64,000 nt of DNA from sequence record MK310183; one strand, written 5' to 3'. The notes under the pieces were generated by a model. It worked only from the letters and a program-made list of their open reading frames with translations, did no database searches and had not been told where the DNA came from. This DNA comes from Phage NC-B. The position numbers and the translations under genes were made by a program. Positions 18,707 to 38,919 of this stretch are shown here, piece by piece. Numbering within the stretch: position 1 is the stretch's first letter; each line of letters begins with the position of its first letter.

Positions 18707-18714
18707 TTGTTCTC

Positions 18715-19381: not shown

Positions 19382-19559
19382 AACCTACATCCATATCAGC
19401 ATCTTCCCAAATGCGTTTATTGACTCGGTGTGATTCTTTATCAGCACGAGGGATACGACCTGTGCGACGATCAAATGCTTGGTGCTTAATCTTTTGATCT
19501 TTACGAGATTCACGAGTAGAGAAGTTTTCATCATACGAACGATAGTCAAATTTACCCAT
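19368..19559 (-). CDS. Hypothetical small basic protein
   Basis: ATG start; 63 aa, Arg/Lys-rich. Confidence 0.35.
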   Translation of the reverse strand: MGKFDYRSYDENFSTRESRKDQKIKHQAFDRRTGRIPRADKESHRVNKRIWEDADMDVGYGES

Positions 19560-19569
19560 TATAATATCC

Positions 19570-20391
19570 TTATTCCCAAGTTTTATCTAACCATGACCAA
19601 TCAAAGAGGTCACCTTCAGCTTGTCCAACGAAGAGCAATCGAGCGTTTTCTAACATCTTATCTTCTGCTTCTTCCTCGAACCTCTTATAGTATTCCATTC
19701 GTATAATATGATAAAGAGTCCACTTATCGAATACCTTCTCAATAAGTTTGATTGCAGCCTTGCTACCAATGCCTTTACGACGCATTACTAGATTGCCACC
19801 CCATATCATTTCAACCTTCTCACCACATCCGGGAATGTTATCTGTGCTATCCCCGATCAGCATCTGGTAGAAGAAGTTCTGCCATGCTACTTCCTCTGGT
19901 ACATAGTGAGGAGGTACTTCTTTCTGTCTCTCCCCGCAAGCCCAACGGTAATGCCATCCGGGGGTGATTAACAAATCTTTATCACGGGTGCAAATGATAG
20001 TGTTCTTATCACGTCTCTGTCTTTCAGCTAAGGCATCATCTGCCTCTCTCCCAAAAACTTCAACGAATTCATAATTCTCTTTAATGTAATCGCTGACATT
20101 TTGCCAGTGGTGAGGTCTTTCTCCCGGTGGTCGATTAGCTTTATAACCTTGCTGCTTAGCAATATCAAACCGAAAATTACCACCTTCGCTGAAGTAAAAG
20201 ATTGTTTTCTCGCAACCAGACCTTGCAATGATTACATCTATTTTATGTTGAAGTCGTTCAATCAAGAATCCATAATCAACTGGAACACGACCTGTGTCTA
20301 GAAAAGGATGCTCTTGTGTAAGAGCACCGACTTCATATCGCAGAACATCTGCATCTACAATTGCTACTTCCGGATAGATTACATCAGACAT
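19570..20391 (-). CDS. 5'-3' exonuclease / flap endonuclease (FEN, T7 gp6 / T5 D15-like)
   Basis: ATG at 20391 with GGAGAGG RBS and ATGTCTGA overlap with upstream stop; motifs GYKANR, DDALA, IPGCGEK. Confidence 0.6.
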   Translation of the reverse strand: MSDVIYPEVAIVDADVLRYEVGALTQEHPFLDTGRVPVDYGFLIERLQHKIDVIIARSGCEKTIFYFSEGGNFRFDIAKQQGYKANRPPGERPHHWQNVSDYIKENYEFVEVFGREADDALAERQRRDKNTIICTRDKDLLITPGWHYRWACGERQKEVPPHYVPEEVAWQNFFYQMLIGDSTDNIPGCGEKVEMIWGGNLVMRRKGIGSKAAIKLIEKVFDKWTLYHIIRMEYYKRFEEEAEDKMLENARLLFVGQAEGDLFDWSWLDKTWE

Positions 20392-25877: not shown

Positions 25878-26044
25878 TACTCCCTTTCATAAATTTTAAG
25901 AACTGTACCGCCATCTGCTTCAATCTGAGCAACTACTTCATCGCGCTCTTCATCAGAATAAACCAGTTGGTTGTGAAATTTGCCTGTACTATCTTGGAAA
26001 TATACATTCCATTTTGGAGCAGGTTTACGAATCAAATCCATCAT
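25877..26044 (-). CDS. Small ORF (55 aa) absent from the ORF track
   Basis: GAGGAG RBS; stop overlaps downstream start (TAATG). Confidence 0.3.
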   Translation of the reverse strand: MMDLIRKPAPKWNVYFQDSTGKFHNQLVYSDEERDEVVAQIEADGGTVLKIYERE

Positions 26045-26232
26045 TGATCTTTCTCCTCTCGTTCAACCCATGTACGGAAAAGCTCCCCATACACTTTGGC
26101 ATCATCAAAACGTCCTTCTTCCTGTGCGAGTTTTTGTTGCTTCAAGCACCATTCAGAACTTTTTACTTCTTCCACTTCCTTGTCTCCTTAAAAAGAACTA
26201 ATCAATAAGACTAGTTCATTTCGTAATACGAT

Positions 26233-26424
26233 TCAGCTCTTCCACGGGAGGTTGATGGTTAAATTCTTAATGGAGAAATCTTTATCAGGAAACTCTTCCA
26301 TTAACTCAGCCGCTTCTTGAATAGCTTTTCTTTCTGTGTTATAGATGCAGAAATGTCCATTACAGCAAACAATTGCATCTTTTGCTCCCGTAATGGCCCA
26401 TGTTTCATGTACATGTCTAGTCAC
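26233..26424 (-). CDS. Hypothetical Cys-containing small protein
   Basis: GTG start 4 nt after GGAGGA RBS; 63 aa. Confidence 0.35.
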   Translation of the reverse strand: MTRHVHETWAITGAKDAIVCCNGHFCIYNTERKAIQEAAELMEEFPDKDFSIKNLTINLPWKS

Positions 26425-26441
26425 TATTCCTCCACTACAAA

Positions 26442-28286
26442 TTAGTGAGTGTGATTCCAGTTTAACCCAATCTTACAGTCAGATGCCAGAGGGCATTCCA
26501 TTTTGAGATACTCACCTGCTTTACGAACACACTCTTCAGTGAGGGTACGAAGTTTGTTAACATCGTCACGATGTACAGTGAACTGGCCTTCATCATGCAT
26601 GTCAATAACCTTCGCACAACGAACACCATCACGCTCAATCCATTTATTAAGGAATAGCATTGCATACTTCATAACAATCGCCCCAGCGCTCTGTAAGAGA
26701 GTATTTAAGGCTTTATGAACCATAACCTTTCCAGTTGCATCTCTTCTCATTGTAATACGACGTCCATCCACACCGTAGATGTATCCACTTTGTGCTTTCT
26801 CTGTCATACGTTCAATAAGAATTGCAATACAAGGATTCTCTGCTAAGAATCTTGCCCTCATGACAGCTCCTTCATCAGAGCCACCGCCTACGATGCTTCC
26901 TAACTTAGCGTCACCAGCTCCGTAGTTGAATGCGTAGATAAATGTTTTAGCATTATCACGAGTAGGAAGGCCAGCAAGTTTTTGGTTATGTGAGTGAATA
27001 TCTCCTTCTAAAAGAATATCTCTGTACATAACAGCAGAAGCTAGACCGCGTTCAGCTTCTCGTTTCTTAGCCGGGTTGTTTTCTCGCTCTGCTTCAGCGA
27101 GCATCTCACGACATTCTTTAATAAGGTAGTGAGCTAGCATCCTCAGCTCAAGACCAGAGCCATCGTAACCTAAGAAGATTTCACGACCAGCAGGAACATA
27201 GAACTTATAGGCACCTACAGGTTTGTCTTTCTTGCCCGGTTTTCCCACTTCGTAGATAATGTTAGTACCCTTTCGTACGTAACACCCATCAGGGATATGG
27301 TTGGTAATGATGAAAGGATGGTTATGACTATCGTCTGAGGAATAGTCAGATTGAAAAAGACTGCGGCACTCGTGACCAAACAAACCGCGAGAAGGAATAT
27401 TAACAACAATGCGATGTTTAAAACGAAATGTCGGAGTAGCGCAGCTATTAGCTTCGGCGGACAACTTACCATCTTTACGTTCCTTGTCGATAAGCCCGCT
27501 AATCAAACCTAGCCTGTGAGCCGCTACAACGCGTCTCTTAAGCAAACTTCCTACACCCCCTAGCTCACCCCCAAGCCCTTCTTCAAGAGTCTCCTCAAGG
27601 TTTGTAGGGGCTGTAGGCCACTTGTTTGATGTAGCCAAAGCTTTTTTGATTTCATCAAAGGTTACAGGCTTCTTCCTATTAGGGTTAAGACCTAAACCGC
27701 TGACATAAGCTTTCATATAATTGACAGTGTGATAACGGAAGTGCTTATCCAAAAACCTTCGGATATCAGCATCTATCATCTCTGCTGTCTGTTTCTCTTT
27801 AGCGTTACCTCGAATCCAAGCAGAATACCATGCAGAGTATGTACCATACTTCTTCATAGCTTTACGAATTTCAAAAGTATTCCAAGGTTTCTTAGAATAA
27901 TTCCACTCTGGAGGTATAAAACCTTCATCCATCAAGGCTTCTTTAATACGTGCATCTTTTGATGGGTCAAAATCTACATACTCAACGCAAGTAAACGCCC
28001 CACCGATATCTTCTCTTTTAAGACCAACCCTATCGCAATAGAGCTGAGGCCACTTCTGTAAAGCACCTGACTTCTTAAAAGGCTTAGCATAAGTTGAACC
28101 ATCCACCCGCATTTTAGGGAGGAGAGGAATCAGTTCTTTATCAATATTGACAATAATCTCTTTGAGAAGGTGAACAAACCACCGAGCGTTTCTTCTGTTG
28201 AAGTTGACTCCATGCTTCGCTTGTTTTGAGATTATATCAGCGACTGTCATCTCCGTTATGAAAGGTAACTTATCAGGGTTATCCAT
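26442..28286 (-). CDS. DNA polymerase, family A (T7 gp5-like polymerase domain, no exonuclease domain)
   Basis: ATG at 28286 with AAGGAG RBS; motif A GYDGSGLELRMLAHY, motif B PTRDNAKTFIYAFNYGAG, motif C VIDMHDE. Confidence 0.8.
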   Translation of the reverse strand: MDNPDKLPFITEMTVADIISKQAKHGVNFNRRNARWFVHLLKEIIVNIDKELIPLLPKMRVDGSTYAKPFKKSGALQKWPQLYCDRVGLKREDIGGAFTCVEYVDFDPSKDARIKEALMDEGFIPPEWNYSKKPWNTFEIRKAMKKYGTYSAWYSAWIRGNAKEKQTAEMIDADIRRFLDKHFRYHTVNYMKAYVSGLGLNPNRKKPVTFDEIKKALATSNKWPTAPTNLEETLEEGLGGELGGVGSLLKRRVVAAHRLGLISGLIDKERKDGKLSAEANSCATPTFRFKHRIVVNIPSRGLFGHECRSLFQSDYSSDDSHNHPFIITNHIPDGCYVRKGTNIIYEVGKPGKKDKPVGAYKFYVPAGREIFLGYDGSGLELRMLAHYLIKECREMLAEAERENNPAKKREAERGLASAVMYRDILLEGDIHSHNQKLAGLPTRDNAKTFIYAFNYGAGDAKLGSIVGGGSDEGAVMRARFLAENPCIAILIERMTEKAQSGYIYGVDGRRITMRRDATGKVMVHKALNTLLQSAGAIVMKYAMLFLNKWIERDGVRCAKVIDMHDEGQFTVHRDDVNKLRTLTEECVRKAGEYLKMECPLASDCKIGLNWNHTH

Positions 28287-28302
28287 CACCCACTCCTTAT
28301 AG

Positions 28303-28656
28303 TTATTGGTATATTAAATCTGTGAATGCTTGGTTGTCTTCAACAATATCTAAAGCTTCATATGAATCAGCCAATTCATCCACATAAAAGACTGCTGGAA
28401 TATCTTCTGCTCGTTGTCTACGAGCTTCTCTCTGTTCGTTGCTGTTTCTCTGAACCTGTGCAAGTTTCATACCCCACACCTGCTCATATAACTCTGGATA
28501 CTTGTCACTAACCACTACATAGTTTCGAGCTGATTGGTTTCTATTAATCTTCGCTGTCAACTCAATAAACTGGCGAAACTCTTGAATAGAGAGGTTGTCA
28601 TGAATATTATCCCACTTGAGAACGCAGTGACGTTCTAGGCGTTGAGGTACTGGCAT
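28303..28656 (-). CDS. Hypothetical protein
   Basis: GGAG RBS, ATG; 117 aa. Confidence 0.45.
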   Translation of the reverse strand: MPVPQRLERHCVLKWDNIHDNLSIQEFRQFIELTAKINRNQSARNYVVVSDKYPELYEQVWGMKLAQVQRNSNEQREARRQRAEDIPAVFYVDELADSYEALDIVEDNQAFTDLIYQ

Positions 28657-28659
28657 AAC

Positions 28660-28917
28660 TTACTCCACTGTAGGGAATGGTTTTAGGTTGTTCATGGCTG
28701 TACGAACATCAGCACAGATTTCAGGGTCACGATAAGAGAGGAATTTACCATCCTTACCACGAATCATTACATTAGTCCGTGCTGTTTTATTAGGCAATAA
28801 AGAAATCCCTTCAATAAGATGGTTGGTAGGGTGTTGTCCTTGATTAACCTTGTAGTCATGAGTCTGAGCGTCACCATTAAAGAGATGATCACGAATTTGG
28901 ATTAAGCTAATCTTCAT
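28660..28917 (-). CDS. Hypothetical protein (tandem paralog)
   Basis: ATG at 28917 coupled (TAATATG); shares KTARTNV.IRG.DGKF.S.RD....LKPFP with the next gene. Confidence 0.4.
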   Translation of the reverse strand: MKISLIQIRDHLFNGDAQTHDYKVNQGQHPTNHLIEGISLLPNKTARTNVMIRGKDGKFLSYRDPEICADVRTAMNNLKPFPTVE

Positions 28918-28918
28918 A

Positions 28919-29170
28919 TTATGCACCAAAGTTAGGGAAAGGTTTCAGATTTTCAATAGACTTAGCAATACGCTTAGGAACATCCTTATCACGGAAGGAG
29001 ATGAACTTTCCATCAGGACCACGAAGGGCTACATTAGTACGAGCTGTTGTTTTGTTAAACTGAATCATCTCAACAGAGCTTGTAACATTTTCTACAGGAA
29101 AAGTATAGCTCTCAGTTGTGTTCAGAGAAGGGAGGAAATCAGTTACAGTGATGTAAGTTACTTTAGACAT
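28919..29170 (-). CDS. Hypothetical protein (tandem paralog)
   Basis: ATG at 29170 with AAGGT RBS (track GTG start lies in the terminator hairpin). Confidence 0.4.
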   Translation of the reverse strand: MSKVTYITVTDFLPSLNTTESYTFPVENVTSSVEMIQFNKTTARTNVALRGPDGKFISFRDKDVPKRIAKSIENLKPFPNFGA

Positions 29171-29196
29171 ATTTATTACCTTAGGTTCTATAAAAG

Positions 29197-29222
29197 AAAA
29201 GGCCACCCGAAATGGGTAGCCT
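29197..29222 (-). terminator. Rho-independent terminator
   Basis: Minus-strand GGCTACCC-ATTTC-GGGTGGCC hairpin followed by TTTTCTTTT. Confidence 0.5.
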
Positions 29223-29226
29223 TATA

Positions 29227-29541
29227 TCAACTTGAGCTTAAAGCTCCTTTGCGACCGCCTGCTGATTTTCCAGCACGATCTCCACTTTTGCCGCCGTTCG
29301 AGCGATTTCGAGAGACTGATTCAACACGTAAGTTACTTGACGCATTAGAACCTCCCGACTTGATTGATCGTTTGTGTCCAACATCTTTACCTCGGACAGC
29401 AGCTTTTCCATCGCGCTTTTCAACGATGCGACGTGCACGGTGGCGCTGAGCATCTCCGCTCTTGCTACCAACGCCGGTCTCACCCCTTGCGATTGCAGTT
29501 CTTCGTTCTTGTGCATAATCACGTTTCGCCTTATCGGTCAT
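29227..29541 (-). CDS. Highly basic Gly/Ser/Arg/Lys-rich protein (possible nucleic-acid binding)
   Basis: AAGGAG RBS before ATGATG; 104-105 aa; an alternative overlapping frame 29238-29522 also exists. Confidence 0.4.
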   Translation of the reverse strand: MTDKAKRDYAQERRTAIARGETGVGSKSGDAQRHRARRIVEKRDGKAAVRGKDVGHKRSIKSGGSNASSNLRVESVSRNRSNGGKSGDRAGKSAGGRKGALSSS

Positions 29542-29576
29542 CATAACTCCTTAATATATCAGTGTACACTAAGGAG

Positions 29577-29585
29577 TATACATTA
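29577..29585 (-). promoter_or_regulatory. Candidate phage-sigma promoter element TAATGTATA
   Basis: Minus-strand motif ~33 nt upstream of start at 29541-29544. Confidence 0.35.
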
Positions 29586-29588
29586 TGT

Positions 29589-30326
29589 TTATGATTTTTC
29601 AGATTCCATTGCTTTAACAATAGCTTTACAGAAACCTGAACGAACAATATCATCCGATTCGCCATCTACTAGAGCGGCAAATTCAAATAACTGGTGACGG
29701 TAGATGAAATCAGTAGCCCAATCAAGACCGCTCTCACCACGCATGTCGTGCTGGTTAGTGTCCCCCATACAGAACATCTGAGAGGTTTCACCAAGACGTG
29801 TCATGATTGAATATGCTTCATCAGGAGTAGTGTTCTGGAACTCATCAACAATCACGATAGCATCGTTGAACGAGCGACCACGTAGATATTCCAGAGGTAC
29901 GAACTCAATATTACCATTACCTACTTGACATTCGTAGAAACCTTTACCGTAGCGCTGAGTAATAACATCAACGATTGGCATTAGGTATGGTTCAAACTTC
30001 TCACGAAGCCCACCGGGAAGTAATCCAAGACTATTACCCATACCAACAGCAGGTCGGCTTAGGATAATCTTCTCAATCTTCCCACTCTTCAGAGCATCAA
30101 TCACTGTAGAAGTGATTACGAAGGTCTTACCACAACCAGCAGGAGCATCTGTGAATACAACCTGTTTGGTTTTAATTGCATCAAGCAGCTCACTCTGGAA
30201 TTGGTTCTGAGGTACTACCGGCTTAGCAAGAACTACTTCTTCAAATTCCCGCTTTCCTTTCTTGGTGACGAGAGCTTCACGACGTAATTCTCTCCGTGAT
30301 GCTTTCCGAGATTCTCTACGACTCAT
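29589..30326 (-). CDS. phoH: PhoH-like ATPase
   Basis: GGAGGT RBS; Walker A DAPAGCGKT, Walker B IVIVDEFQN, CMGDTNQ motif. Confidence 0.7.
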   Translation of the reverse strand: MSRRESRKASRRELRREALVTKKGKREFEEVVLAKPVVPQNQFQSELLDAIKTKQVVFTDAPAGCGKTFVITSTVIDALKSGKIEKIILSRPAVGMGNSLGLLPGGLREKFEPYLMPIVDVITQRYGKGFYECQVGNGNIEFVPLEYLRGRSFNDAIVIVDEFQNTTPDEAYSIMTRLGETSQMFCMGDTNQHDMRGESGLDWATDFIYRHQLFEFAALVDGESDDIVRSGFCKAIVKAMESEKS

Positions 30327-30504
30327 TTCCTACCTCCGTGTTCTTCATATAAGAAGCTACAGGATTTACACTCTGAGCAATGGATACCTATAACCTTAAT
30401 TTCGACAAACTTCTTATTCTTCCCTTTAGTCGGGGAGCCTTTGGCAAGCTCCCGTATTACTTTCGAGTCCAAATGGAGAAGAGTTGATTCACATTTAAAA
30501 CATT

Positions 30505-30825
30505 TCAGATTGATTTGTCCTTATGTAAACGGTATACTTCAGTAGCCATACAAGCTATACGCTCGTCATGAGGAAGATGCATACCAGTGGAGCCATTCCA
30601 TCCATTGAACTCTGAATCAAAGAATCCGATAGGCTCAGGATACATCTCTTGCAAAGTGGTTAAGTCATCGGCCACTTGTTGCCATTTGTCATCAGACCAG
30701 ATTGGGTCATCCAACCAATAATACAAATAGGAGTGGATAAGCATCTGTGTTCTGTATCGTTTAATCACTTCAGCAGGACTAATCTCGTTTCCGTTACCAG
30801 TCCTAAATGTATTATCGTTGATCAT
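30505..30825 (-). CDS. Small protein resembling NAD-dependent DNA ligase adenylation subdomain Ia
   Basis: HSYLYYWLDDPIWSDDKWQQVADDLTTLQEMYPE parallels LigA N-terminal H.YLY...D.P...D..YD.L...L..LE...PE. Confidence 0.35.
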   Translation of the reverse strand: MINDNTFRTGNGNEISPAEVIKRYRTQMLIHSYLYYWLDDPIWSDDKWQQVADDLTTLQEMYPEPIGFFDSEFNGWNGSTGMHLPHDERIACMATEVYRLHKDKSI

Positions 30826-31020
30826 TTAGATAACCTTGTGCTCGTAGATGCTGGGGTTGAAATAATGCAACCAGTTTATATATTGTTTCTGTTCAAGGTA
30901 GTGTCTGCAATCATGACAAAAAGCATGACCCAAACCTGTTTCCTCGTTCAGCTTGAAGTTGATAAGAAGCTTCTGCTTTTGACAGAAGCTACATGCTTTA
31001 GTGGGCTTCACGTAGTGCAT
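30826..31020 (-). CDS. Putative zinc-ribbon protein
   Basis: Two CxxC pairs (CSFC, CHDC); start ambiguous, track ORF extends to 31134 overlapping thyX. Confidence 0.25.
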   Translation of the reverse strand: MHYVKPTKACSFCQKQKLLINFKLNEETGLGHAFCHDCRHYLEQKQYINWLHYFNPSIYEHKVI

Positions 31021-31648
31021 CCCATGAGATTGGGAAAAGTTTACGAAGCTCTTCATCAACAGTTGATGCGAACACTCGTACTTCATACTGAGCATGGTCT
31101 GACAGCCGCTGACGACATAACTCTGACCAACCATACAAAGAGCCTGTCCACACCCATTCAGTGATCATGCCCTGAGGCAATACAAATCGAGCTTGCTCTG
31201 GAGCAATAAACTTAATTAATTCATCATACGACTCAAGAGCTGTTTCATATGCCCGATTAATCAGAACTAGTGCAGAGTTTTGTGCTCCTGTGGTGAGGAG
31301 ATTCCCCGCACCTGCATGGAGGTCCGAAGGTCTTTCAAAAATCTCTTTAGGGATGAAGAGTTCAACTGCTCCATCTTTATACCGCCGGGACATTTCGTTC
31401 CACGAGAATCCAACTTGATGCTTGCCCAGCTGTCTCGCAATTGCGATTGGCGCTTTGCATCGGAAGCTAATTGTCGGATGACGGAATGGTGTGACATGCT
31501 TTTCTCTGGCAAGGAACTTGATAAGGCGTTCATCTCGTTCATTTAACTCTCCTTCACGAGTAACCCCAAAAGAAACTCGAGCTGCATTAACAACAGATTT
31601 ATCAGAACCCATTGCTTCGATTAGTGTTGCTTGTAATTGTTCATTCAT
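30998..31648 (-). CDS. thyX: Flavin-dependent thymidylate synthase (ThyX-like)
   Basis: AAGGAAGAG RBS; ThyX-type motif RQLGKHQVGFSWNEMSRRY. Confidence 0.6.
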   Translation of the reverse strand: MNEQLQATLIEAMGSDKSVVNAARVSFGVTREGELNERDERLIKFLAREKHVTPFRHPTISFRCKAPIAIARQLGKHQVGFSWNEMSRRYKDGAVELFIPKEIFERPSDLHAGAGNLLTTGAQNSALVLINRAYETALESYDELIKFIAPEQARFVLPQGMITEWVWTGSLYGWSELCRQRLSDHAQYEVRVFASTVDEELRKLFPISWDALREAH

Positions 31649-31662
31649 CCTTGAACTCTTCC

Positions 31663-31878
31663 TTAATAATGAATCTTTTTATAAACCATATTGCTTCCGC
31701 CTTCTGTTTCAATCCCTTTCTGAATTGTAATCTTAGAAGCGCCAGTGTTAGCAATTTTCAAAGCTCGCTTAAATCTGCGAGCCTCTTTCCGTGTGGAGTA
31801 TGTTGAGAAGCTAGGGATTGTACTATCAAAATTAAACCACTTAACTACCCAAAAAGTAATCCAAGGTTTCTTTGCCAT
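31663..31878 (-). CDS. Hypothetical small basic protein (paralog family with 33745-33957 and 33957-34157)
   Basis: 71 aa; shares TRKEARRFK...G and C-terminal ..HY with the two paralogs. Confidence 0.4.
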   Translation of the reverse strand: MAKKPWITFWVVKWFNFDSTIPSFSTYSTRKEARRFKRALKIANTGASKITIQKGIETEGGSNMVYKKIHY

Positions 31879-31879
31879 A

Positions 31880-32155
31880 TTACTTACCTTTCAGAGCCGT
31901 GTCTAAAAATGCACGGAGATTAGATTCAGTTTGCATACCTGACAAGCTGTAGTGAGCACCACTATTCTTATCAGGGACTACAAAGGCTGGGATACTGCGA
32001 ACACCGTATTCAATAGCTCGCTCTCGACCATCACCTTCAGAGATGTTTACCTCTTCAACTTCAACGTTGTAATCAGCCACAACCTTCTTAAACACAGGAG
32101 CCATAGCTGCACACGGAGCACATGAATTACTATAAAACTTAATTACTTTACTCAT
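31880..32155 (-). CDS. Thioredoxin-fold redoxin
   Basis: ATG at 32155 with AAGGA RBS; CAPC active-site motif in FYSNSCAPCAAMAP; 91 aa. Confidence 0.55.
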   Translation of the reverse strand: MSKVIKFYSNSCAPCAAMAPVFKKVVADYNVEVEEVNISEGDGRERAIEYGVRSIPAFVVPDKNSGAHYSLSGMQTESNLRAFLDTALKGK

Positions 32156-32345
32156 TCTATTCCTTGTTAATAAACAGGTTGATATGACGCTGGGTAGCAG
32201 GAACAACAATAAAAGATTTATACTGACCTTTTGCTAAGTCATGAGCAATCTTCTTTGTCTGACCAAGACCCATCACACAGCCACTAACGATAATGGCATG
32301 TGCTTGTAATTCTTCAGGTAGGTTTAGTTTCACTCTTTGGATTCC

Positions 32346-32531
32346 TTATAGCATACAAAGAATAATAACAAGAGGTAGTGTTATAGCAAAATGTACCAGA
32401 ACAACACTACCTAGCTTGATAGCTTTAACATCCTCTTCTGCTGGGTTTTCTTTAATTGCTAAATTTCGAGCTTTATATATAACAGTACCAACTATTAACG
32501 ACCACACGGCCCACACAATCAGTGAAATCAT
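32346..32531 (-). CDS. Small two-TM membrane protein (tandem paralog)
   Basis: 61 aa, two hydrophobic helices; paralogous to 32541-32762. Confidence 0.4.
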   Translation of the reverse strand: MISLIVWAVWSLIVGTVIYKARNLAIKENPAEEDVKAIKLGSVVLVHFAITLPLVIILCML

Positions 32532-32540
32532 GTCAAACCC

Positions 32541-32762
32541 TTATGCAGTCAACAGGTGGAGAAGGAAAGGAATGACAACAGAGAAAACTACCAGAGCAAT
32601 GCTACCATGTTTAATAGGTTTGGCATCATTTGGATTTTCTTTAAGCATCTGTTTCTGAGCCAGATAAACGATACCACCAACAAGAATTGCCCATACAGAC
32701 CACACGATTGCTGAAAACATATTCATATCCTTATAAAGAAGTTCGCCCCACCTCTTAAACAA
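32541..32762 (-). CDS. Small two-TM membrane protein (tandem paralog)
   Basis: 73 aa; shares IVW.VW.L.VG..IY.A......KENP......IK.GS..LV with 32346-32531. Confidence 0.4.
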   Translation of the reverse strand: MFKRWGELLYKDMNMFSAIVWSVWAILVGGIVYLAQKQMLKENPNDAKPIKHGSIALVVFSVVIPFLLHLLTA

Positions 32763-32783
32763 AGAGACAGGGCGGAGGTTTGA

Positions 32784-33359
32784 TTAGTAAGACACGTCAC
32801 CACTGGAGTGGGACATGTTGCTCTTGACGAAGTAACAGAACTTGCCAAGACCTTCATTAATTTCTTGAAGCATACTCTGATCAACTGGATAGGTGCACAA
32901 GTCTGAATCAAACTCGTCCATCTTCTCAATGATACACATAAGAGTCATGCACATGTCGGAAAGCATACCGTCCATGTCGAGATCAGCGTTACCTTCTCGG
33001 AACCAAGCATGACCTAAATAGTTACTAGCAGTAGCATCCACTTTAACACAGTGAAAGCGCATACGCTCTGCTATTCGGTCGCCTGCCTCACGAGCATAAT
33101 CTTCTAGTTCATCGAACATACCATGAACACCTTGGAAACCAGCTCCAGAGACGTTCCAGTGGTAGTTCTTTGCTTTGATGTGTAGAAGTTCAAGGTTAGC
33201 TTGCACACCACACAAGATGTGTTCTAAGCTGTTACCACTAATCAGTTTATTCATTCCCTCAAGACGAGAAATAGAAGAGTCAGTAGTAGAGAATGGGTTG
33301 CTAGGACCCACTCTTGTTAGCTCTGGTAAATCGAAGACATTATTATGCATTAGGTGCAT
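32784..33359 (-). CDS. dps: Dps/ferritin-like protein
   Basis: Motif KNYHWNVSGAGFQGVHGMFDELEDYAREAGDRIAERM matches Dps ferroxidase-site region; start may be ATG at 33350. Confidence 0.5.
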   Translation of the reverse strand: MHLMHNNVFDLPELTRVGPSNPFSTTDSSISRLEGMNKLISGNSLEHILCGVQANLELLHIKAKNYHWNVSGAGFQGVHGMFDELEDYAREAGDRIAERMRFHCVKVDATASNYLGHAWFREGNADLDMDGMLSDMCMTLMCIIEKMDEFDSDLCTYPVDQSMLQEINEGLGKFCYFVKSNMSHSSGDVSY

Positions 33360-33672
33360 CCCCTTCTAAGTTAGTTGAATTAGCTACATTACGAGCAATG
33401 TTATCCATGACCTGCTGTGTGATAACAATGCAATTCTGAGGGTCTACTGATTTAGAACGCCCCATTTCAGGGTCATAGACTTTGACTCGCTTGGCTGTTG
33501 AGCCAGTAACTTGCAACACTTTGAGAAGATAACCTTGATTTCCAATAGACCATGCAACAACATCACGATTCTTGATATAACGACCAAGCATATCCCGATG
33601 ATAGAACTGCTGCATAACTTTAGCTTTGCTAATCTCTTCAGATGGCGGAGCCACTTTACTCAAATCTAACAT
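33343..33672 (-). CDS. Hypothetical protein
   Basis: AGGAGAG RBS; 109 aa. Confidence 0.45.
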   Translation of the reverse strand: MLDLSKVAPPSEEISKAKVMQQFYHRDMLGRYIKNRDVVAWSIGNQGYLLKVLQVTGSTAKRVKVYDPEMGRSKSVDPQNCIVITQQVMDNIARNVANSTNLEGDAPNA

Positions 33673-33711
33673 TTCACTCTCTCCTGTTTAACACAATATT
33701 CTTATACTGTA

Positions 33712-33720
33712 TATACATTT
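33712..33720 (-). promoter_or_regulatory. Candidate promoter element (variant AAATGTATA)
   Basis: Minus-strand motif ~40 nt upstream of start 33672. Confidence 0.3.
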
Positions 33721-33744
33721 GAGAGTGATCATATCTACTACCAA

Positions 33745-33957
33745 TCAGTAGTAAACATATCCAGAGATATATGAGCCTTTATCCCCACTAAACTCAAACC
33801 ATCGATGCATGTCAGCACGTTTAACCGTACCGACTAGAGCTTTCATATTCTTCTTAGCAATACGAGCCTCTTTACGAGTGTTAAACAGTTTGATACTATC
33901 TTTACCTAGATGGACACCATCTTCCCAAACAACACGAACAGCCCACATCTTTTTCAT
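33745..33957 (-). CDS. Hypothetical small basic protein (paralog family)
   Basis: 70 aa; MKKMWAVRVVW...RKEARIAKK...GYVYY. Confidence 0.4.
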   Translation of the reverse strand: MKKMWAVRVVWEDGVHLGKDSIKLFNTRKEARIAKKNMKALVGTVKRADMHRWFEFSGDKGSYISGYVYY

Positions 33958-34157
33958 TAGTAATGTACCTTTCCGCTGATATAAATACGGCCTGAGGTAT
34001 ACTCATAGCCCTTGAGAATCTTAACAGAGATAAGATATCCAGTGTGTAATTCACTGAATGATTTCTTAAGCCTACGTGCATCTTCTCGTGTTTTCTGGTA
34101 GGTCATGGTCACACCCCCACTTGTCCACTCTGTCTTAACTAACCAAATTCTTTTCAT
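33957..34157 (-). CDS. Hypothetical small basic protein (paralog family)
   Basis: ATG at 34157 chosen by alignment with paralogs; track start 34172. Confidence 0.4.
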   Translation of the reverse strand: MKRIWLVKTEWTSGGVTMTYQKTREDARRLKKSFSELHTGYLISVKILKGYEYTSGRIYISGKVHY

Positions 34158-34172
34158 AAGACCTGCTCTCAT

Positions 34173-34706
34173 TTAGACACCCTTAGAAGCAACTACACCT
34201 TCGCTACCATTATAGCGACCCTTAACTGCATAGGAATGTTCACCAGCATGTGAATGCTCAAACATCACCATCTGACCAACACGCATACCAGCACGAACTC
34301 GTAAGCTGTGGTGCTTGGTTACGTTATGAAATTCGAATGTCAGCTTGCTGTTGTTAAACCCAGCGTCTGCCCAACCAGCATGTAAATGGTTCAGGCCACA
34401 ACGAGCCATCGAAGATCGCAAAACAAACAAACTGGAGATGTTATCTGGAAGGTTGAACTCTTCCATTGAGTGAGCCAAGAAGAATTGTCCCGGAGTGATG
34501 ATAATACCATCTTCAGGGATTTTTACTTCTTTCCACTTGAGGTTTTCTTTAGCATCAATGTCAACAATACCATCAGCCTGTTCTTCAACAAGGATAGTAT
34601 CACCAATGCGGATATCCACGCTAGCAGCGTTAACATATTTATGCTCCGCATCTAAAAAGCCATTATCAATAACGCTGTGTAATTCTTGAGAACCTAAAAG
34701 ACTCAT
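34173..34706 (-). CDS. dcd: dCTP deaminase / dUTPase-family enzyme
   Basis: Motifs ASVDIRIGD and GWADAGF consistent with dCTP deaminase family; ATGA overlap with upstream gene. Confidence 0.55.
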   Translation of the reverse strand: MSLLGSQELHSVIDNGFLDAEHKYVNAASVDIRIGDTILVEEQADGIVDIDAKENLKWKEVKIPEDGIIITPGQFFLAHSMEEFNLPDNISSLFVLRSSMARCGLNHLHAGWADAGFNNSKLTFEFHNVTKHHSLRVRAGMRVGQMVMFEHSHAGEHSYAVKGRYNGSEGVVASKGV

Positions 34707-36148
34707 GAGTTTCTGTTTCCTTGTACGGATGATGCCAAATTATTAATCATGTTGCGAGCTGTTTCACGAGATAGTGTAACACCTGCTAAGTTGTTACGAA
34801 GCTCACCAGATAGTTCACGAGCAGTAGCTCGAAGTTCTGCACCAAGTGCAGTGTCAGAGTGAGCCAGACCGTTACGACGACCAACAGGTCGAGGAGCTTC
34901 GTTAGCGTCATTAGCTAATGATGCAAAACCAATATGAGCAGCTTCACGAGCCGCTATAGCTGATACTCGATCTTCTGTAGGGGTTGGTAAATCACCAACG
35001 TCTACACGTTCGATATCACTAGCACGAATTCCACCAACAACAGATCTTACTGTTTCCCATGAACGACGAGAACGCTGCAAATCATCCATTGATGGAGAAG
35101 AAACAGGACGAGCAGTTCCCCCTGAGACATGCCATGTATGGTTGTGGGTGTCCGTCCCGGAAGAGCGTGAACTAACACGTAAGTCACCGGTAAAAGTTTC
35201 ACGAGGTGCCACTGTAGAAGGAGCTGCGAATCTTGCCTGTTGCCAAGAATCACGTCTGTTGGTTCCCGGAGTCCAAGGCTGCGTGATTGCTTCAGCACCT
35301 ATAGTGGTTAATCCGCTAGACCATTCTGTCTGTAGATTAACTTCCTCGTCCAGATAACTACGACCCCTTTCCTGAGGAATGTTTAATATAGTTTCCATCA
35401 TCTTCAGGGTATAATGACGACGCTGATTCTGATATAAATTTACACCAGCCATAGGTCCAACTAAATCACTAATCAGGTGAACTTCTGGCTCACCGAAAGC
35501 TCCCATTGCAAGGTGCATATATTCAGTAGAACTGCTATAAACTGCAACAGTTGCTTCAGGCCACTTCTTGTGAACATACTTCATTTCACGACTAGATACC
35601 ACAGGAATGTCACGAGTGTATGACATTGCAAACAAACCTTCGTTTGACACATACAGATTACCAAGAGTCATAAACCCTTGACAGATCATAGGGAAGCGAC
35701 GGCTTAAAGTGTCCATATCCAAAGGTAGATTAATCATCATCTGGATTTTAACTTGATCAATCTCAATTTCCAGAATCTCTTGGAAAGTGAAAAGCGCTTC
35801 AGCATAAGTTGTCCCGTTAACAGGTTGAACTAGTCGAGATGTTACTTGAAGTCCCTTACTCTCTGTCCAAGACAAGAAGTTGTCGAGGAACAGTGCAGCA
35901 TTGCCTACGTTAGCAGGGCTATTTTCCTGACGAGTGTTCCAACGAAGACCGCCTTGAACTAGGAAGATATCAACATCATTCGGAGTTCTATTTTGGAAGA
36001 ACGTATCACGGATAGCACCACCTGCAATAACAGGATAGATGCCATCAGGGACTACGTTATCTCTGATCAAATTACGAATCAGGTCAAGCCCTACACTGAG
36101 GGCTTCTCCTTCTTGAAGGTTCAATTCAGACAATGGAATCTTAATCAT
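34703..36148 (-). CDS. Pol-beta-superfamily nucleotidyltransferase (CCA-adding enzyme/poly(A) polymerase-like head) with Arg/Ser-rich low-complexity C-terminal half
   Basis: N-terminal VIAGGAIRD...PNDVDIF matches GG.VRD...D.DI head motif of class II tRNA nucleotidyltransferases; 481 aa. Confidence 0.45.
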   Translation of the reverse strand: MIKIPLSELNLQEGEALSVGLDLIRNLIRDNVVPDGIYPVIAGGAIRDTFFQNRTPNDVDIFLVQGGLRWNTRQENSPANVGNAALFLDNFLSWTESKGLQVTSRLVQPVNGTTYAEALFTFQEILEIEIDQVKIQMMINLPLDMDTLSRRFPMICQGFMTLGNLYVSNEGLFAMSYTRDIPVVSSREMKYVHKKWPEATVAVYSSSTEYMHLAMGAFGEPEVHLISDLVGPMAGVNLYQNQRRHYTLKMMETILNIPQERGRSYLDEEVNLQTEWSSGLTTIGAEAITQPWTPGTNRRDSWQQARFAAPSTVAPRETFTGDLRVSSRSSGTDTHNHTWHVSGGTARPVSSPSMDDLQRSRRSWETVRSVVGGIRASDIERVDVGDLPTPTEDRVSAIAAREAAHIGFASLANDANEAPRPVGRRNGLAHSDTALGAELRATARELSGELRNNLAGVTLSRETARNMINNLASSVQGNRNS

Positions 36149-36150
36149 TT

Positions 36151-36699
36151 CTACATTTTCCAGTTGAGAGATGGGGGATTTCTATAATCAAATCCTGCCA
36201 TTTGGCAAAGACACATGTAAACCTTAACTGTTAAGTTAACGTCTTGCTCACAATACGTGAACATGTCTTCAGTGAAAGCATCCCATGCTTCTTCCTGTTC
36301 ACCATAGTCACCCTTCAGCTCTCCCAGAAATTCGCCCCATTGCTTGAGGCCATGACCGCGAGGGCCATGTCTAGGGTCGCCTTTGGGGTATTCTGGACTG
36401 TCACCAATACGGTCAGGCTTGAGGTATCGACTCAGGCACAGGGTATCAAAGACATTAAAACGAAAAGGTATCACATGAGAGTAGAATTTAAAGAGAGCAC
36501 ATAAATCATAATCAATGATGTTATGTCCAATCACAACATCAGCCTCTTTGAGTTTATAAAGAGCATCCTCAATCTCATGTGGTCTAAACCCCCAACGCTC
36601 TCCTGAGAGAACATCAAAAATCCAAACACACCAGATATCAGAGACTTCTTCATACAACCCGTTGGCTTCTATGTCAAAAGCGTAAAGTTTCTTATCCAT
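36151..36699 (-). CDS. 3'-5' proofreading exonuclease, T7 DNA polymerase N-terminal domain-like, as a separate gene
   Basis: ATG at 36699 coupled (ATGGATAA) to EndoVII stop; Exo motifs [32 protein letters not shown] parallel T7 gp5 residues 1-190. Confidence 0.7.
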
Positions 36700-37135
36700 A
36701 AGATTTTTCCAGATACCGCAAGGCGGAGCGTATAATCTCAAGGTCATCTTTTAAATAACCTATCCCTGAATTGCACGATCTGCATAGGATTCCTCTAACA
36801 ACACCTGTTTCGTGACAATGGTCCACACAAGCAATTTTACTTATGTTTTTCATTTCATCCGAGATGCTTAACTCTTTGCCGCAAATAGCACAAGAGTTAT
36901 CCTGAGAACCCAATAGAGCTTTGACGTCATCAAGACTTAAACCATATTGCTTCAGTGAGTTTTTCCTAGAAGCTTTTCGGTGAATCTCTTTAACACCCTC
37001 TATATTGTGATATCTGAACATAGTCCTGTCATTCATGCAGACTTTACAAGAAGACCTATACCTGCCAGACTCAGACCTCTTATAGAAAGCGTCTAGGGGT
37101 TTTTCAACCCCACACTTACTACAGGTTTTTACCAA
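36692..37135 (-). CDS. Endonuclease VII-type (His-Me finger) junction-resolving nuclease
   Basis: CSKCG...C..C...CAICG...[17 protein letters not shown] motif pattern as in T4 gp49. Confidence 0.6.
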
Positions 37136-38919
37136 GGCCGTGCCTCCCCATCTTGTGTTAGAAGGGAAGCTGCATCTTCTCCGTTGGTGACTGTAAACGG
37201 ATTATCTTCATCAACTTCATGATCTTCTCGTTCCACAAGACGACCTGTTTCGTTGATGTATTTGGTATAGCAAACCCCTGTCTGTCCATAGTTACGCTCT
37301 TTGAGCAGACGTATGATTGACAAGTTTTTACCTAACCCATCCGCTTGCTTATTACGTTCGAAACCGATAATACATTGACACCAGCGCATTAATGAACGTG
37401 AGCCAGTAAACTGTACTTCTTTAACCTGACCACCTTCTTCGTGAGGGGCACCGCCCGCCGGAGCATTCAAGTGAGATAACACAAAAGCAGTGAAGTCTAA
37501 TTCCTTACACATACCAGCAAGCTCTGAAGCAATCTTACTGATTTCTGTATTCACTTCGGATGGAGTTAAGTGAGATACCAATGCAGTGATGTTATCAAGG
37601 ATGATAAACTTACACTGATTCTCAACTACCCAAAAGCGAATACACTGCTTAATGTCTTCCCACTCATTCTGTCCAAAGTTGTCGTATAAGAAAAACTTAT
37701 CAGCGTATCGAAGTGCTTCATCTCGTAGCTGACTTTCTTCATACTCAACATCTGGTCGGTGAAATGGAACAGATGCAGACTTACCAGCAATGTTCTTAAC
37801 AGACATGCCTACCTTCTCTTCCAAGAAGAAGCCACCACCATTAAAACCATGCTCAAGGCAAAGCCATGCTACCAGTTCGTGTGCGATTAAGGTTTTACCT
37901 GAACCAACACCACCTCCGATTGCAACCATCTCTCCCCAACGAATACCAAAGGTCATGTCATTGAGAGTTTTCCACGGATAAGGGATACCCCATTCCGCTT
38001 TCTTCAGAGCGTCTTCAAGGCAGTCAAAAACTGTAACAGCTCCAGCAGGAGATTCCCGCTTAGCTGAATACTTCAGATTATTGAAAAGCTCTTGACCTCT
38101 CCCTGCCAGTAACATGTCGTTTGCATCTTTGATTTCCTTTTCCTGTCCGTTGTAAGTAAACGTACCTTTTGGAATTCTTGCAAACTTGACATGTGGGTAC
38201 AGAGAACGACCTTTAGTCAATGCAATCTCACCTGCATCATCATTGTCCATGCAGAGTACAATCTCCTCGAAACCGTTAATAAAATCACGATTTCTTGATA
38301 ACACAGAAGAGATTGAACCTGCACCGAACGGAAGAGAGACACAAGCAGGTTTGATATTAGTTGCGTTTGTGAACGCAGTAAGTACGTGGAATCCAGACAT
38401 ACAAGAGAGTGGGTCTTCAAAGATGAAGAGCTTCTTATTGTAAACATCGCCACGTTGTGCTTGAGCCATACCAAATAAGTCGGCTTCTTTCACATTACCT
38501 ACATAATAGAACTTCTTGCTGTCTAGAAGTTTTACTTCATATCCAACAATATTCCCATCACGTTCACGAGGGAAGAAGTAGCTGTCAGGAGTTTGACCGT
38601 CTGTTTGACTTAAACCAATACGGCATCCATAACGTTCAGATACAGCTTTAGGAATTAAGCGACGAGTCAATTCTCCCTGAGGAAGCTCTAAGCAATCGTC
38701 TAAGACTTCTCGGAGTTCTTCAGGGGACAGCTCTTTCTTTTCATTAGGAGTGGGCGTCGTTCCTTTCTCGAAGATTTCATACGCACCACATCTGTTACAT
38801 GAACCCCACTCCTCACCGGACTCTTCATTTCGGAAGAGAATCATGTGATTGCGGGTCTTATCACGACCATGAGAGATACACTCTTTACAGCCCGTGTCTC
38901 CCAAAATGATCTTTGACAT
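37129..38919 (-). CDS. Primase-helicase (T7 gp4-like: zinc finger, TOPRIM primase, DnaB-family helicase)
   Basis: AAGGAGG RBS; N-terminal Cys4 zinc motif, Walker A GGGVGSGKT, 596 aa. Confidence 0.8.
   Translation of the reverse strand: MSKIILGDTGCKECISHGRDKTRNHMILFRNEESGEEWGSCNRCGAYEIFEKGTTPTPNEKKELSPEELREVLDDCLELPQGELTRRLIPKAVSERYGCRIGLSQTDGQTPDSYFFPRERDGNIVGYEVKLLDSKKFYYVGNVKEADLFGMAQAQRGDVYNKKLFIFEDPLSCMSGFHVLTAFTNATNIKPACVSLPFGAGSISSVLSRNRDFINGFEEIVLCMDNDDAGEIALTKGRSLYPHVKFARIPKGTFTYNGQEKEIKDANDMLLAGRGQELFNNLKYSAKRESPAGAVTVFDCLEDALKKAEWGIPYPWKTLNDMTFGIRWGEMVAIGGGVGSGKTLIAHELVAWLCLEHGFNGGGFFLEEKVGMSVKNIAGKSASVPFHRPDVEYEESQLRDEALRYADKFFLYDNFGQNEWEDIKQCIRFWVVENQCKFIILDNITALVSHLTPSEVNTEISKIASELAGMCKELDFTAFVLSHLNAPAGGAPHEEGGQVKEVQFTGSRSLMRWCQCIIGFERNKQADGLGKNLSIIRLLKERNYGQTGVCYTKYINETGRLVEREDHEVDEDNPFTVTNGEDAASLLTQDGEARPW

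What the first reader, a model, noticed from the sequence alone, without database searches (positions are those of the whole stretch)
26442..36699. T7-like family A DNA polymerase encoded as two separate genes ~8 kb apart
The 3'-5' exonuclease domain (36151-36699) aligns closely to T7 gp5 residues 1-190 but terminates with a stop. The polymerase domain with motifs A, B and C is a separate gene at 26442-28286. Between them lie thyX, dcd, a thioredoxin-fold protein, Dps, PhoH and the nucleotidyltransferase. No intein or homing-endonuclease signature is seen at the break. The phage also encodes its own thioredoxin-fold protein, which may stand in for the host thioredoxin used by T7 polymerase.
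Basis: partly seen in the sequence, partly recalled or inferred. Interest (0 to 1): 0.5.

Follow-up and report, generated by a model that had tools for sequence, protein, structure and literature searches.

The report
Known two-gene phage DNA polymerase

Summary
The window comes from a phiEco32-like E. coli podophage (Gordonclarkvirinae, about 95% nucleotide identity to Suseptimavirus genomes).

- **Exonuclease gene:** ORF 36151-36699(-), 182 aa, matches T7 gp5 residues 5-178 (34% identity, E 7e-16). All Exo I, II and III catalytic residues are present.
- **Polymerase gene:** ORF 26442-28286(-), 614 aa, matches the rest of gp5 (E 1e-38). It has motifs A, B and C, its own AGGAG ribosome-binding site, and a confident AlphaFold model whose best PDB match is T7 gp5.
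- **Break point:** it lies in the interdomain linker, at T7 residues about 196-205. No sequence is lost, and there is no intron or intein.
- **Conservation:** Proteus Privateer-like and Pseudomonas LUZ24-like phages are cut at the same alignment column and share the primase/helicase-exo-[2.1 to 7.9 kb]-pol gene order. Every detected close homologue of either half is a stand-alone protein.

The split is therefore an ancient, conserved gene fission. It is already annotated ("DNA polymerase exonuclease subunit", "part I/part II") and discussed in print, as is the phage-thioredoxin idea. The likely mechanism, a non-covalent exo-pol heterodimer, is inferred and has not been tested.

Interest is low.

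The parts
36151..36699 (-). 3'-5' proofreading exonuclease subunit of the split family A DNA polymerase (182 aa). Catalytic residues are D9 and E11 (Exo I), D65 (Exo II), and Y149 and D153 (Exo III).
   Evidence: T7 gp5 residues 5-178, E 7e-16. Best PDB hit is T7 gp5. phrog_403 'DNA polymerase exonuclease subunit', E 1e-35. D9, E11, H59, N60, D65 and D153 are invariant in 42 stand-alone homologues.
26442..28286 (-). Polymerase subunit (614 aa) comprising thumb, palm and fingers. Motif A is around D375, motif B is R443/K447/Y451, and motif C is H564-D565-E566. It has its own Shine-Dalgarno sequence, AGGAG, at 28296-28300.
   Evidence: T7 gp5, E 1e-38. Pfam DNA_pol_A, E 3.7e-24. AF2 model pLDDT 93.2, best PDB fold match T7 gp5 at E 9.9e-27. 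Invariant residues. Ribosome-binding site read.
28287..36150 (-). The 7.9-kb block of about 25 same-strand genes that separates the two halves. It includes the nucleotidyltransferase, dcd, Dps-like protein, thioredoxin, thyX, a LigA-domain-Ia-like ORF, PhoH and many small ORFs.
   Evidence: ORF list, Pfam and PHROG assignments. The equivalent block is 2.1 kb in Pseudomonas phage UFV-P2 and 4.5 kb in Proteus phage P59.
37129..38919 (-). T7 gp4-like primase/helicase. It is the conserved upstream neighbour of the exonuclease gene, and in relatives its stop codon overlaps the exonuclease start codon.
   Evidence: Pfam DnaB_C and Toprim_2. Shared gene order in ECBP2, SU7, UKE3, UFV-P2 and P59.
36692..37135 (-). 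Free-standing endonuclease VII/HNH (homing-endonuclease-like) gene inserted after the third codon of the ancestral exonuclease ORF. It took over that ORF's TTG start codon and supplies a new ATG for the exonuclease gene.
   Evidence: Pfam Endonuclease_7, E 7e-21. Junction alignment. Absent from ECBP2, SU7 and UKE3. Found at the same site in YW01 (71% aa); phage 7-11 has a 41% aa relative next to its primase/helicase gene.
31880..32155 (-). Phage thioredoxin-fold protein (91 aa, CAPC active site). It is a candidate accessory factor, not a demonstrated one.
   Evidence: Pfam Thioredoxin, E 1.8e-12. 29% identity to E. coli TrxA. Distribution across phages.
26923..26924 (-). Empty (intron-less) site inside the motif B codons (FN^YGAG). 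A close relative carries a 304-nt group I intron at this position.
   Evidence: L006 alignment. Rfam RF00028, 102 bits, E 2.6e-27.
32744..32774 (-). Strong terminator-like hairpin (13 pairs) between the exonuclease and polymerase genes.
   Evidence: Pattern scan only.
29199..29223 (-). Strong terminator-like hairpin (10 pairs) between the exonuclease and polymerase genes. A terminator is annotated at about the equivalent position in phage SU7.

Best explanation
An ancestral T7 gp5-like gene was cut once, long ago, in the linker between its 3'-5' exonuclease and polymerase domains. Each half now has its own start codon, stop codon and ribosome-binding site. The space between them has since filled with nucleotide-metabolism and small accessory genes. 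During infection the two polypeptides are made separately. Most likely they re-associate non-covalently through the native exo-pol domain interface, giving a heterodimeric proofreading replicase that works with the adjacent gp4-like primase/helicase.

Shown here: homology of each half, intact catalytic residues, the position of the cut, its conservation across distant phage groups, and independent translation signals.

Inferred: physical association of the two subunits and proofreading in cis.
For: - Each half is most similar to the corresponding part of T7 gp5.
- The halves map to adjacent segments of one PHROG polymerase profile.
- The junction falls at the same alignment column (T7 residues about 196-205) in the window, Proteus phage P59 and Pseudomonas phage UFV-P2. 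No residues are missing and no docking domain has been added.
- The gene order GGCT - hypothetical - primase/helicase - exo - [variable block] - pol is shared by these groups.
- All 42 exonuclease homologues are stand-alone proteins of 105-286 aa, and none has a PF00476 domain.
- All polymerase homologues with at least 98% query coverage are 493-618 aa and carry PF00476 only.
- The four exonuclease carboxylates are invariant in 42 stand-alone proteins, so the exonuclease is under selection as an active enzyme.
- The two halves diverge in parallel across genomes. Exo/pol identities to the window are 71/83, 54/72, 51/48, 48/48, 45/47 and 41/41%. The first four pairs were matched by equal contig length; the last two are P59 and UFV-P2.
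- Precedent: the split PolB of phiKZ forms a stable 1:1 complex (PMC13648687).
- From established knowledge: the Klenow exonuclease and polymerase domains fold and act independently.
Against: - There is no direct evidence that the two proteins bind each other. I could not run a complex prediction.
- The exonuclease gene is translationally coupled to the primase/helicase gene in relatives, not to the polymerase gene.
- Two terminator-like hairpins lie between the exonuclease and polymerase genes, so the two subunits need not be made in equal amounts.
- The halves carry no added dimerisation element.
Confidence: 0.6

Rival explanations
1. The exonuclease is an independent enzyme that does not stably bind the polymerase subunit. 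It might proofread in trans, as a free DnaQ-like exonuclease would, or serve recombination, primer trimming or DNA-end processing, possibly docked on the primase/helicase. The polymerase subunit would then replicate without built-in editing.
For: - The exonuclease gene overlaps the stop codon of the primase/helicase gene in ECBP2, SU7, UKE3 and UFV-P2.
- It is separated from the polymerase gene by 2-8 kb and by terminator-like hairpins.
- It has no added docking element.
Against: - Its closest relatives outside the split clade are the N-terminal domains of fused T7-type polymerases, not free exonucleases.
- The exonuclease and polymerase are always found together and co-diverge.
- The cut falls exactly at the domain boundary, which leaves the native interface intact.
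Confidence: 0.3
2. The two halves are rejoined at the RNA or protein level, by cis- or trans-splicing ('two exons', as the UFV-P2 paper words it) or by a split intein, to give one gp5-like chain.
For: - The UFV-P2 paper calls the two ORFs 'exons'.
- Group I introns do occur in polymerase genes of this group.
Against: - No Rfam intron was found anywhere in the window at gathering threshold. The only hit is a tRNA.
- About 25 conserved protein-coding genes lie between the halves.
- The exonuclease ORF ends in a stop codon two bases before the next gene's ATG.
- The polymerase ORF has its own AGGAG ribosome-binding site and ATG.
- The termini align to the gp5 linker with no extra intein-like sequence.
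Confidence: 0.03
3. The split is an assembly or sequencing artefact, or a recent pseudogenisation of one fused gene.
For: None found.
Against: - The same arrangement occurs in the related complete phage genomes examined and in distant genera.
- Catalytic residues are invariant in both halves.
- The halves are 7.9 kb apart.
Confidence: 0.01
4. The phage thioredoxin (31880-32155) is a third subunit. It would bind the polymerase thumb as E. coli thioredoxin binds the T7 gp5 thioredoxin-binding loop, and confer processivity.
For: - Polymerase residues 54-135 show weak homology to gp5 283-362, which includes part of the thioredoxin-binding loop (E 6e-5).
- The thioredoxin gene is conserved in C3-morphotype phages, and the idea was proposed for Privateer.
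- The protein is a true thioredoxin-fold protein, 29% identical to TrxA.
Against: - In the AF2 model the thumb region (residues about 56-240) is a confidently folded alpha/beta-plus-helical subdomain (block pLDDT about 88-97, dipping to 69 at 231-240). It is not a floppy loop that would need a partner.
- LUZ24-like phages share the split polymerase, but Pseudomonas phages are not among the ten most frequent organism names in the hit list for this thioredoxin.
- Similar thioredoxins occur in T5-like phages. From established knowledge, T5 polymerase is processive on its own.
- The host already supplies TrxA.
- Thioredoxin could instead serve nucleotide metabolism (reduction of ribonucleotide reductase).
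Confidence: 0.12

Closest known systems
Split DNA polymerase of phiEco32-like / Kuravirus-like phages (Gordonclarkvirinae: Kuravirus, Suseptimavirus and others)
   Same: This is the same feature. The genes are orthologous (exonuclease 77-90% aa identity and polymerase 87-99.5% aa identity to relatives), the order is the same, and the cut is at the same place. RefSeq names it 'DNA polymerase exonuclease subunit'. [quoted passage not shown] PMC3517423 cites Savalia 2008 for phiEco32.
   Different: This genome carries an endonuclease VII/HNH gene at the 5' end of the exonuclease gene, which most relatives lack. Unlike ECBP2, SU7 and contig L006, it has an uninterrupted polymerase gene.
'DNA polymerase part I / part II' of LUZ24-like Pseudomonas phages (LUZ24, PaP3, tf, UFV-P2)
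   Same: The junction column is the same. The primase/helicase - exo - small genes - pol order is the same. The polymerase subunit is 41% identical over its full length.
   Different: The intervening block is only 2.1 kb and contains no nucleotide-metabolism genes. The thumb insertion is shorter. Pseudomonas phages are not among the main groups carrying a homologue of this thioredoxin.
T7 gene 5 DNA polymerase with E. coli thioredoxin
   Same: It is the best sequence and fold match for both halves. All exonuclease and polymerase catalytic motifs are shared, and both phages have a gp4-like primase/helicase partner.
   Different: T7 gp5 is one 704-aa chain. Its 76-aa thioredoxin-binding loop corresponds here to a larger folded thumb subdomain. 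The window's polymerase also has extra inserts before and after motif A.
E. coli Pol III core (alpha polymerase plus epsilon DnaQ proofreading subunit)
   Same: The polymerase and the 3'-5' proofreading exonuclease are separate polypeptides. This is an analogy in working principle (established knowledge).
   Different: The polymerase family is different (C, not A). The epsilon-alpha pairing is not derived from a fused Pol I-type enzyme. No test was made here.
Other naturally split phage polymerases: phiKZ PolB DNAP-N/DNAP-C and the T7-like cyanophage lineage with a split PolA
   Same: The phage replicase is encoded as two genes. For phiKZ a stable 1:1 complex was shown (PMC13648687). Split T7-like PolA was reported in uncultured cyanophages (bioRxiv 10.1101/325100).
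   Different: The phiKZ enzyme is family B. I did not compare the cut position or ancestry of the cyanophage split with this one.

Membership tests
Family A DNA polymerase, T7 gp5-like | 3'-5' exonuclease motifs Exo I (DxE), Exo II (NxxxD) and Exo III (YxxxD) with four catalytic carboxylates | tested here: met
   DIEAN, HNIIDYD and YCEQD align to gp5 D5/E7, D65 and D174. D9, E11, D65 and D153 are invariant in 42 homologues.
Family A DNA polymerase, T7 gp5-like | Polymerase motifs A (DxSxxE), B (RxxxKxxxYG) and C (HDE) | tested here: met
   GYDGSGLELR, RDNAKTFIYAFNYGAG and MHDEGQ are present. D375, E380, R443, K447, Y451, H564, D565 and E566 are invariant in 94 sequences.
Family A DNA polymerase, T7 gp5-like | Right-hand thumb/palm/fingers fold closest to gp5 | tested here: met
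   AF2 model pLDDT 93.2, pTM 0.82. The top 27 Foldseek PDB hits are T7 gp5 chains (E down to 9.9e-27, TMq up to 0.59), ahead of Bst and Taq Pol I.
Family A DNA polymerase, T7 gp5-like | Exonuclease and polymerase domains in one polypeptide | tested here: not met
   The two ORFs are 7,864 bases apart, each with its own start and stop codon.
Family A DNA polymerase, T7 gp5-like | 76-residue thioredoxin-binding loop in the thumb | tested here: inconclusive
   There is weak similarity to gp5 283-362 (E 6e-5). However, the region is predicted to be part of a folded subdomain of about 185 residues. Binding was not testable.
Split PolA of phiEco32-like / LUZ24-like podophages ('exonuclease subunit' plus 'DNA polymerase') | Stand-alone exonuclease of about 170-190 aa encoded just downstream of the primase/helicase gene | tested here: met
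   The 182-aa ORF follows the primase/helicase gene, with an HNH gene inserted between them in this genome. phrog_403 matches at E 1e-35.
Split PolA of phiEco32-like / LUZ24-like podophages ('exonuclease subunit' plus 'DNA polymerase') | Polymerase subunit that starts at the gp5 linker (about residue 205), at the same junction as in other members | tested here: met
   The junction falls in the same MAFFT column in the window, P59 and UFV-P2. There is full-length (98-99% coverage) homology to LUZ24-like polymerase subunits.
Split PolA of phiEco32-like / LUZ24-like podophages ('exonuclease subunit' plus 'DNA polymerase') | The two polypeptides assemble into one enzyme | not testable with these tools
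   No complex prediction or biochemistry was available, and I found no experimental report for any member in the papers searched.
Intron- or intein-interrupted polymerase gene | Group I/II intron RNA or intein (Hint) motifs at the break | tested here: not met
   The Rfam gathering-threshold scan of the whole window gave only a tRNA. Pfam shows no intein domain in either half. The termini align to the gp5 linker with no extra sequence.
Free-standing homing endonuclease (side feature, 36692-37135) | HNH/endonuclease VII nuclease domain, sporadic presence among close relatives, insertion next to a conserved coding target with a divergent flank | tested here: met
   Pfam Endonuclease_7, E 7e-21. 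Absent from ECBP2, SU7 and UKE3; a same-site relative exists in YW01, and 7-11 has a 41% aa relative next to its primase/helicase gene. The first 60 nt or so of the exonuclease gene, including the Exo I codons, do not align with UKE3, whereas the flanks are 88-92% identical. Cleavage activity was not testable.

The most novel reading that the evidence does not exclude
The separately encoded exonuclease may be more than a detached gp5 domain. It could act as an exchangeable replisome module, made in step with the primase/helicase (its start codon overlaps that gene's stop codon in relatives). It would dock on the polymerase thumb/palm together with the phage's own thioredoxin, giving a three-part, tunable-fidelity replicase. 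On this reading, the linker gap serves as a landing pad for nucleotide-metabolism genes.
Probability: 0.08. Interest if true: 0.45.

Novelty: already known. Interest (0 to 1): 0.13.

Why it matters
It matters little as a discovery, because the split is a documented hallmark of phiEco32-like, Privateer-like, 7-11-like and LUZ24-like phages. Public records already label both genes.

Some value remains as an untested biochemical question. Nobody appears to have shown whether a naturally split family A polymerase reassembles, how proofreading is coupled, or whether the enlarged thumb or the phage thioredoxin supplies processivity. Such an enzyme pair could interest polymerase engineers, since it offers separable proofreading.

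For annotation, the practical lesson is to label the 182-aa ORF as the polymerase's exonuclease subunit, and to record the adjacent homing endonuclease.

Tried and rejected
- **Concatenated alignment (A1):** I aligned an exo+pol concatenate with exo-only and pol-only homologues, to feed a structure prediction of the "re-fused" enzyme. MAFFT stretched the short exonuclease rows over the whole length, so A1 was discarded. The assembly hypothesis is therefore untested.
- **Internal duplication in the thumb:** two BLAST segments of the polymerase subunit overlapped on gp5 318-362, which suggested a repeat. Direct comparison gave no significant similarity (E 0.11), so I rejected the idea.
- **Intron search:** the Rfam gathering scan of the window, ECBP2 and SU7 found no intron. 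The HNH interruption of the ECBP2/SU7 polymerase gene therefore remains unclassified.
- **Family libraries:** NCBIfam has no model for the exonuclease, the HNH protein or the nucleotidyltransferase. Pfam gives only a sub-threshold hit for the exonuclease.
- **Primary literature:** the original phiEco32 paper (Savalia 2008, PMC2587145) is not held. Its content is cited second-hand through PMC3517423.
- **Promoters:** the sigma-70 promoter scan found no more sites than expected from shuffled sequence (21 against 26.6), so I make no promoter claims.

Full report
**Identity of the window.** Megablast of 26000-38000 against the phage collection gave 98 records, almost all Escherichia phages. The best are phage 4E8 (94.6% identity over 95% of the query), Bas87 and vB_EcoP-101114UKE3. 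These belong to Gordonclarkvirinae, genus Suseptimavirus: the phiEco32-like or "Kuravirus-like" C3-morphotype podophages. All genes between about 24 and 39 kb lie on the minus strand.

**Check of the observation.** The exonuclease ORF is 36151-36699(-), 182 aa. A longer ORF version starting at 36747 exists, but relatives use the short form. It aligns to T7 gp5 residues 5-178 with 34% identity, E 7e-16. Its best PDB sequence match is T7 gp5, E 2.3e-9. It hits phrog_403 "DNA polymerase exonuclease subunit" at E 1e-35. The Pfam match is only sub-threshold.

The polymerase ORF is 26442-28286(-), 614 aa. It aligns to gp5 283-704 at E 1e-38, has Pfam DNA_pol_A at E 3.7e-24, and has T7 gp5 as best PDB match at E 4e-33. 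It has its own AGGAG Shine-Dalgarno sequence 6 nt before the ATG. The exonuclease ORF ends in TAG two bases before the ATG of the next gene.

**Anatomy of the split.** I concatenated exo+pol from the window, from Proteus phage P59 and from Pseudomonas phage UFV-P2, and aligned them to T7 gp5. In all three split lineages the junction falls in the same column, opposite gp5 residues about 196-205, which is the linker between the two domains. Nothing is missing and nothing is added: there is no intein-like or docking sequence. Exo I (DIEAN), Exo II (HNIIDYD), Exo III (YCEQD), motif A (DGSGLELR), motif B (RDNAKTFIYAFNYGAG) and motif C (HDE) are intact.

The two halves also hit consecutive parts of one PHROG polymerase profile: positions 669-826 and 837-1233 of phrog_17.

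An AF2 model of the polymerase subunit (94-sequence alignment) is confident, with pLDDT 93.2 and pTM 0.82. Its 27 best PDB fold matches are all T7 gp5 chains, ahead of Bst and Taq Pol I. Compared with gp5, the subunit has an enlarged thumb. Residues about 56-240 are predicted as a folded alpha/beta-plus-helical subdomain. It also has inserts before and after motif A.

**Conservation of the split.**
- All 42 database homologues of the exonuclease (33-88% identity) are stand-alone proteins of 105-286 aa. None carries a polymerase domain.
- Every polymerase homologue covering at least 98% of the query (36-99% identity) is 493-618 aa with PF00476 only. The first listed protein that also has an exonuclease domain (P0158) covers only 66% of the query.
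- The gene order gamma-glutamyl cyclotransferase - small ORF - primase/helicase - exo - [variable block] - pol is shared with ECBP2, SU7, P59 and UFV-P2. The block measures 2.1 kb in UFV-P2, 4.5 kb in P59 and 7.9 kb here.
- The exonuclease carboxylates D9, E11, D65 and D153 are invariant across 42 stand-alone proteins, and the polymerase catalytic residues across 94. Both halves are therefore maintained as active enzymes.
- The simplest history is one ancient fission in the linker of a gp5-like gene, followed by accretion of genes in the gap.

**Mechanism.** Splicing or protein ligation is very unlikely. Rfam finds no intron in the window, the gap holds about 25 conserved coding genes, and each half has its own translation signals. 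The best explanation is a non-covalent heterodimer that rebuilds a gp5-like proofreading polymerase (confidence about 0.6). That association is inferred, not shown.

The main rival is an exonuclease acting independently or docked elsewhere (about 0.3). It draws on three points:
- the exonuclease start codon overlaps the primase/helicase stop codon in relatives;
- two strong terminator-like hairpins lie between the exonuclease and polymerase genes;
- there is no added dimerisation element.

A precedent for reassembly exists: the split PolB of phiKZ forms a 1:1 complex (PMC13648687).

**Thioredoxin idea.** The 91-aa phage protein is a true thioredoxin-fold protein (CAPC active site, 29% identity to E. 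coli TrxA). Polymerase residues 54-135 resemble gp5 283-362 weakly (E 6e-5).

Several points count against the idea:
- the corresponding thumb region is predicted to fold on its own;
- the LUZ24-like phages share the split polymerase, yet Pseudomonas phages are not among the main carriers of this thioredoxin's homologues;
- T5-like phages do carry such homologues;
- the host TrxA is available anyway.

I rate the idea at about 0.12. It was already proposed for phage Privateer (PMC7881722).

**Comparison with what is known.** The feature is already known.
- RefSeq annotates the ECBP2 orthologue as "DNA polymerase exonuclease subunit".
- LUZ24-type genomes use "DNA polymerase part I / part II".
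[quoted passage not shown] - I found no biochemical study of any of these enzymes in the papers searched.

An endonuclease VII/HNH gene (36692-37135; Pfam E 7e-21) is inserted after the third codon of the ancestral exonuclease ORF. In ECBP2, SU7 and UKE3 the exonuclease starts TTG/GTG-GTA-AAG, overlapping the primase/helicase stop codon. In the window that same TTG-GTA-AA opens the HNH ORF, and the exonuclease gets a new ATG that overlaps the HNH stop codon.

The first 60 nt or so of the exonuclease gene, including the Exo I codons, do not align with UKE3, whereas the flanks are 88-92% identical. The polymerase subunit is 99.5% identical to that of UKE3. This pattern fits a free-standing homing endonuclease with a co-converted or immunising flank. 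A same-site relative exists only in phage YW01 (71% aa), and phage 7-11 has a 41% aa relative next to its primase/helicase gene.

Mobile elements also hit the polymerase gene in relatives. A 304-nt ORF-less group I intron sits in the motif B codons of contig L006 (Rfam 102 bits). An HNH gene cuts the ECBP2/SU7 polymerase gene into 570 + 51 aa. The window has the uninterrupted allele.

**Verdict.** Interest is low (0.13). The only open point is biochemical: whether and how the two subunits, and possibly a thioredoxin, assemble.

Noticed in passing
window 36692-37135 (-), junctions at 37129-37135 and 36692-36699: An endonuclease VII/HNH homing-endonuclease-like gene is inserted after codon 3 of the ancestral exonuclease ORF. 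It reuses that ORF's TTG start codon and provides a new ATG for the exonuclease gene. The adjacent 60 nt or so of the exonuclease gene (Exo I codons) are recoded relative to the HNH-less relative UKE3. The insertion is rare among relatives: YW01 has it at the same site (71% aa), and 7-11 has a 41% aa relative next to its primase/helicase gene.
   Followed up: partly
L006:4354-4617 (+); equivalent empty site at window 26923/26924 (-): A close relative (ENA contig, 77 kb) carries a 304-nt ORF-less group I intron (Rfam RF00028, 102 bits, E 2.6e-27) inside the motif B codons (FN^YGAG) of the polymerase gene. The window has the intron-less allele.
   Followed up: partly
L001:2069-4520 and L002:2070-4521 (ECBP2, SU7): In these relatives an HNH endonuclease gene cuts the polymerase gene again near its 3' end (570 aa + HNH + 51 aa). 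No Rfam intron was detected at gathering threshold, so it is unclear whether this is an intron or a true second split.
   Followed up: no
window about 27567-28121 (-), polymerase residues about 56-240: The thumb of the polymerase subunit carries a confidently predicted alpha/beta-plus-helical subdomain of about 185 residues where T7 gp5 has its 76-residue thioredoxin-binding loop. It is shorter in LUZ24-like phages. Its function is unknown; it may be an intrinsic DNA-holding or processivity element.
   Followed up: partly
window 30505-30825 (-): A 106-aa ORF is annotated in relatives as 'NAD-dependent DNA ligase' (phrog_6466, E 2.9e-37). It is far too short for a ligase and looks like a stand-alone LigA N-terminal (domain Ia-like) fragment.
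   Followed up: no
window 28660-28929 and 28919-29206 (-): Two adjacent small ORFs (89 and 95 aa) belong to the same PHROG family of unknown function (phrog_6814). They form a tandem paralogue pair just upstream of the polymerase gene.
   Followed up: no
window 32744-32774 and 29199-29223 (-): Two strong terminator-like hairpins (13 and 10 pairs, each followed by a T-run) lie between the exonuclease and polymerase genes. They suggest that the two halves sit in different transcription units.
   Followed up: no
window 53065-53137 (-): A tRNA gene (Rfam RF00005, 71.9 bits) is the only Rfam hit in the whole window.
   Followed up: no
window 34703-36148 (-): The 481-aa 'nucleotidyltransferase' immediately downstream of the exonuclease gene has no Pfam or NCBIfam hit. 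It matches only phage-specific phrog_12715. It has a GGAIRD...DVD Pol-beta-type motif near its N-terminus and a long Ser/Arg/Gly-rich C-terminal half.
   Followed up: no
window about 16000-20000: Cumulative GC skew peaks here and the sign of the skew flips. This is consistent with a switch in gene orientation between the plus-strand and minus-strand modules.
   Followed up: no
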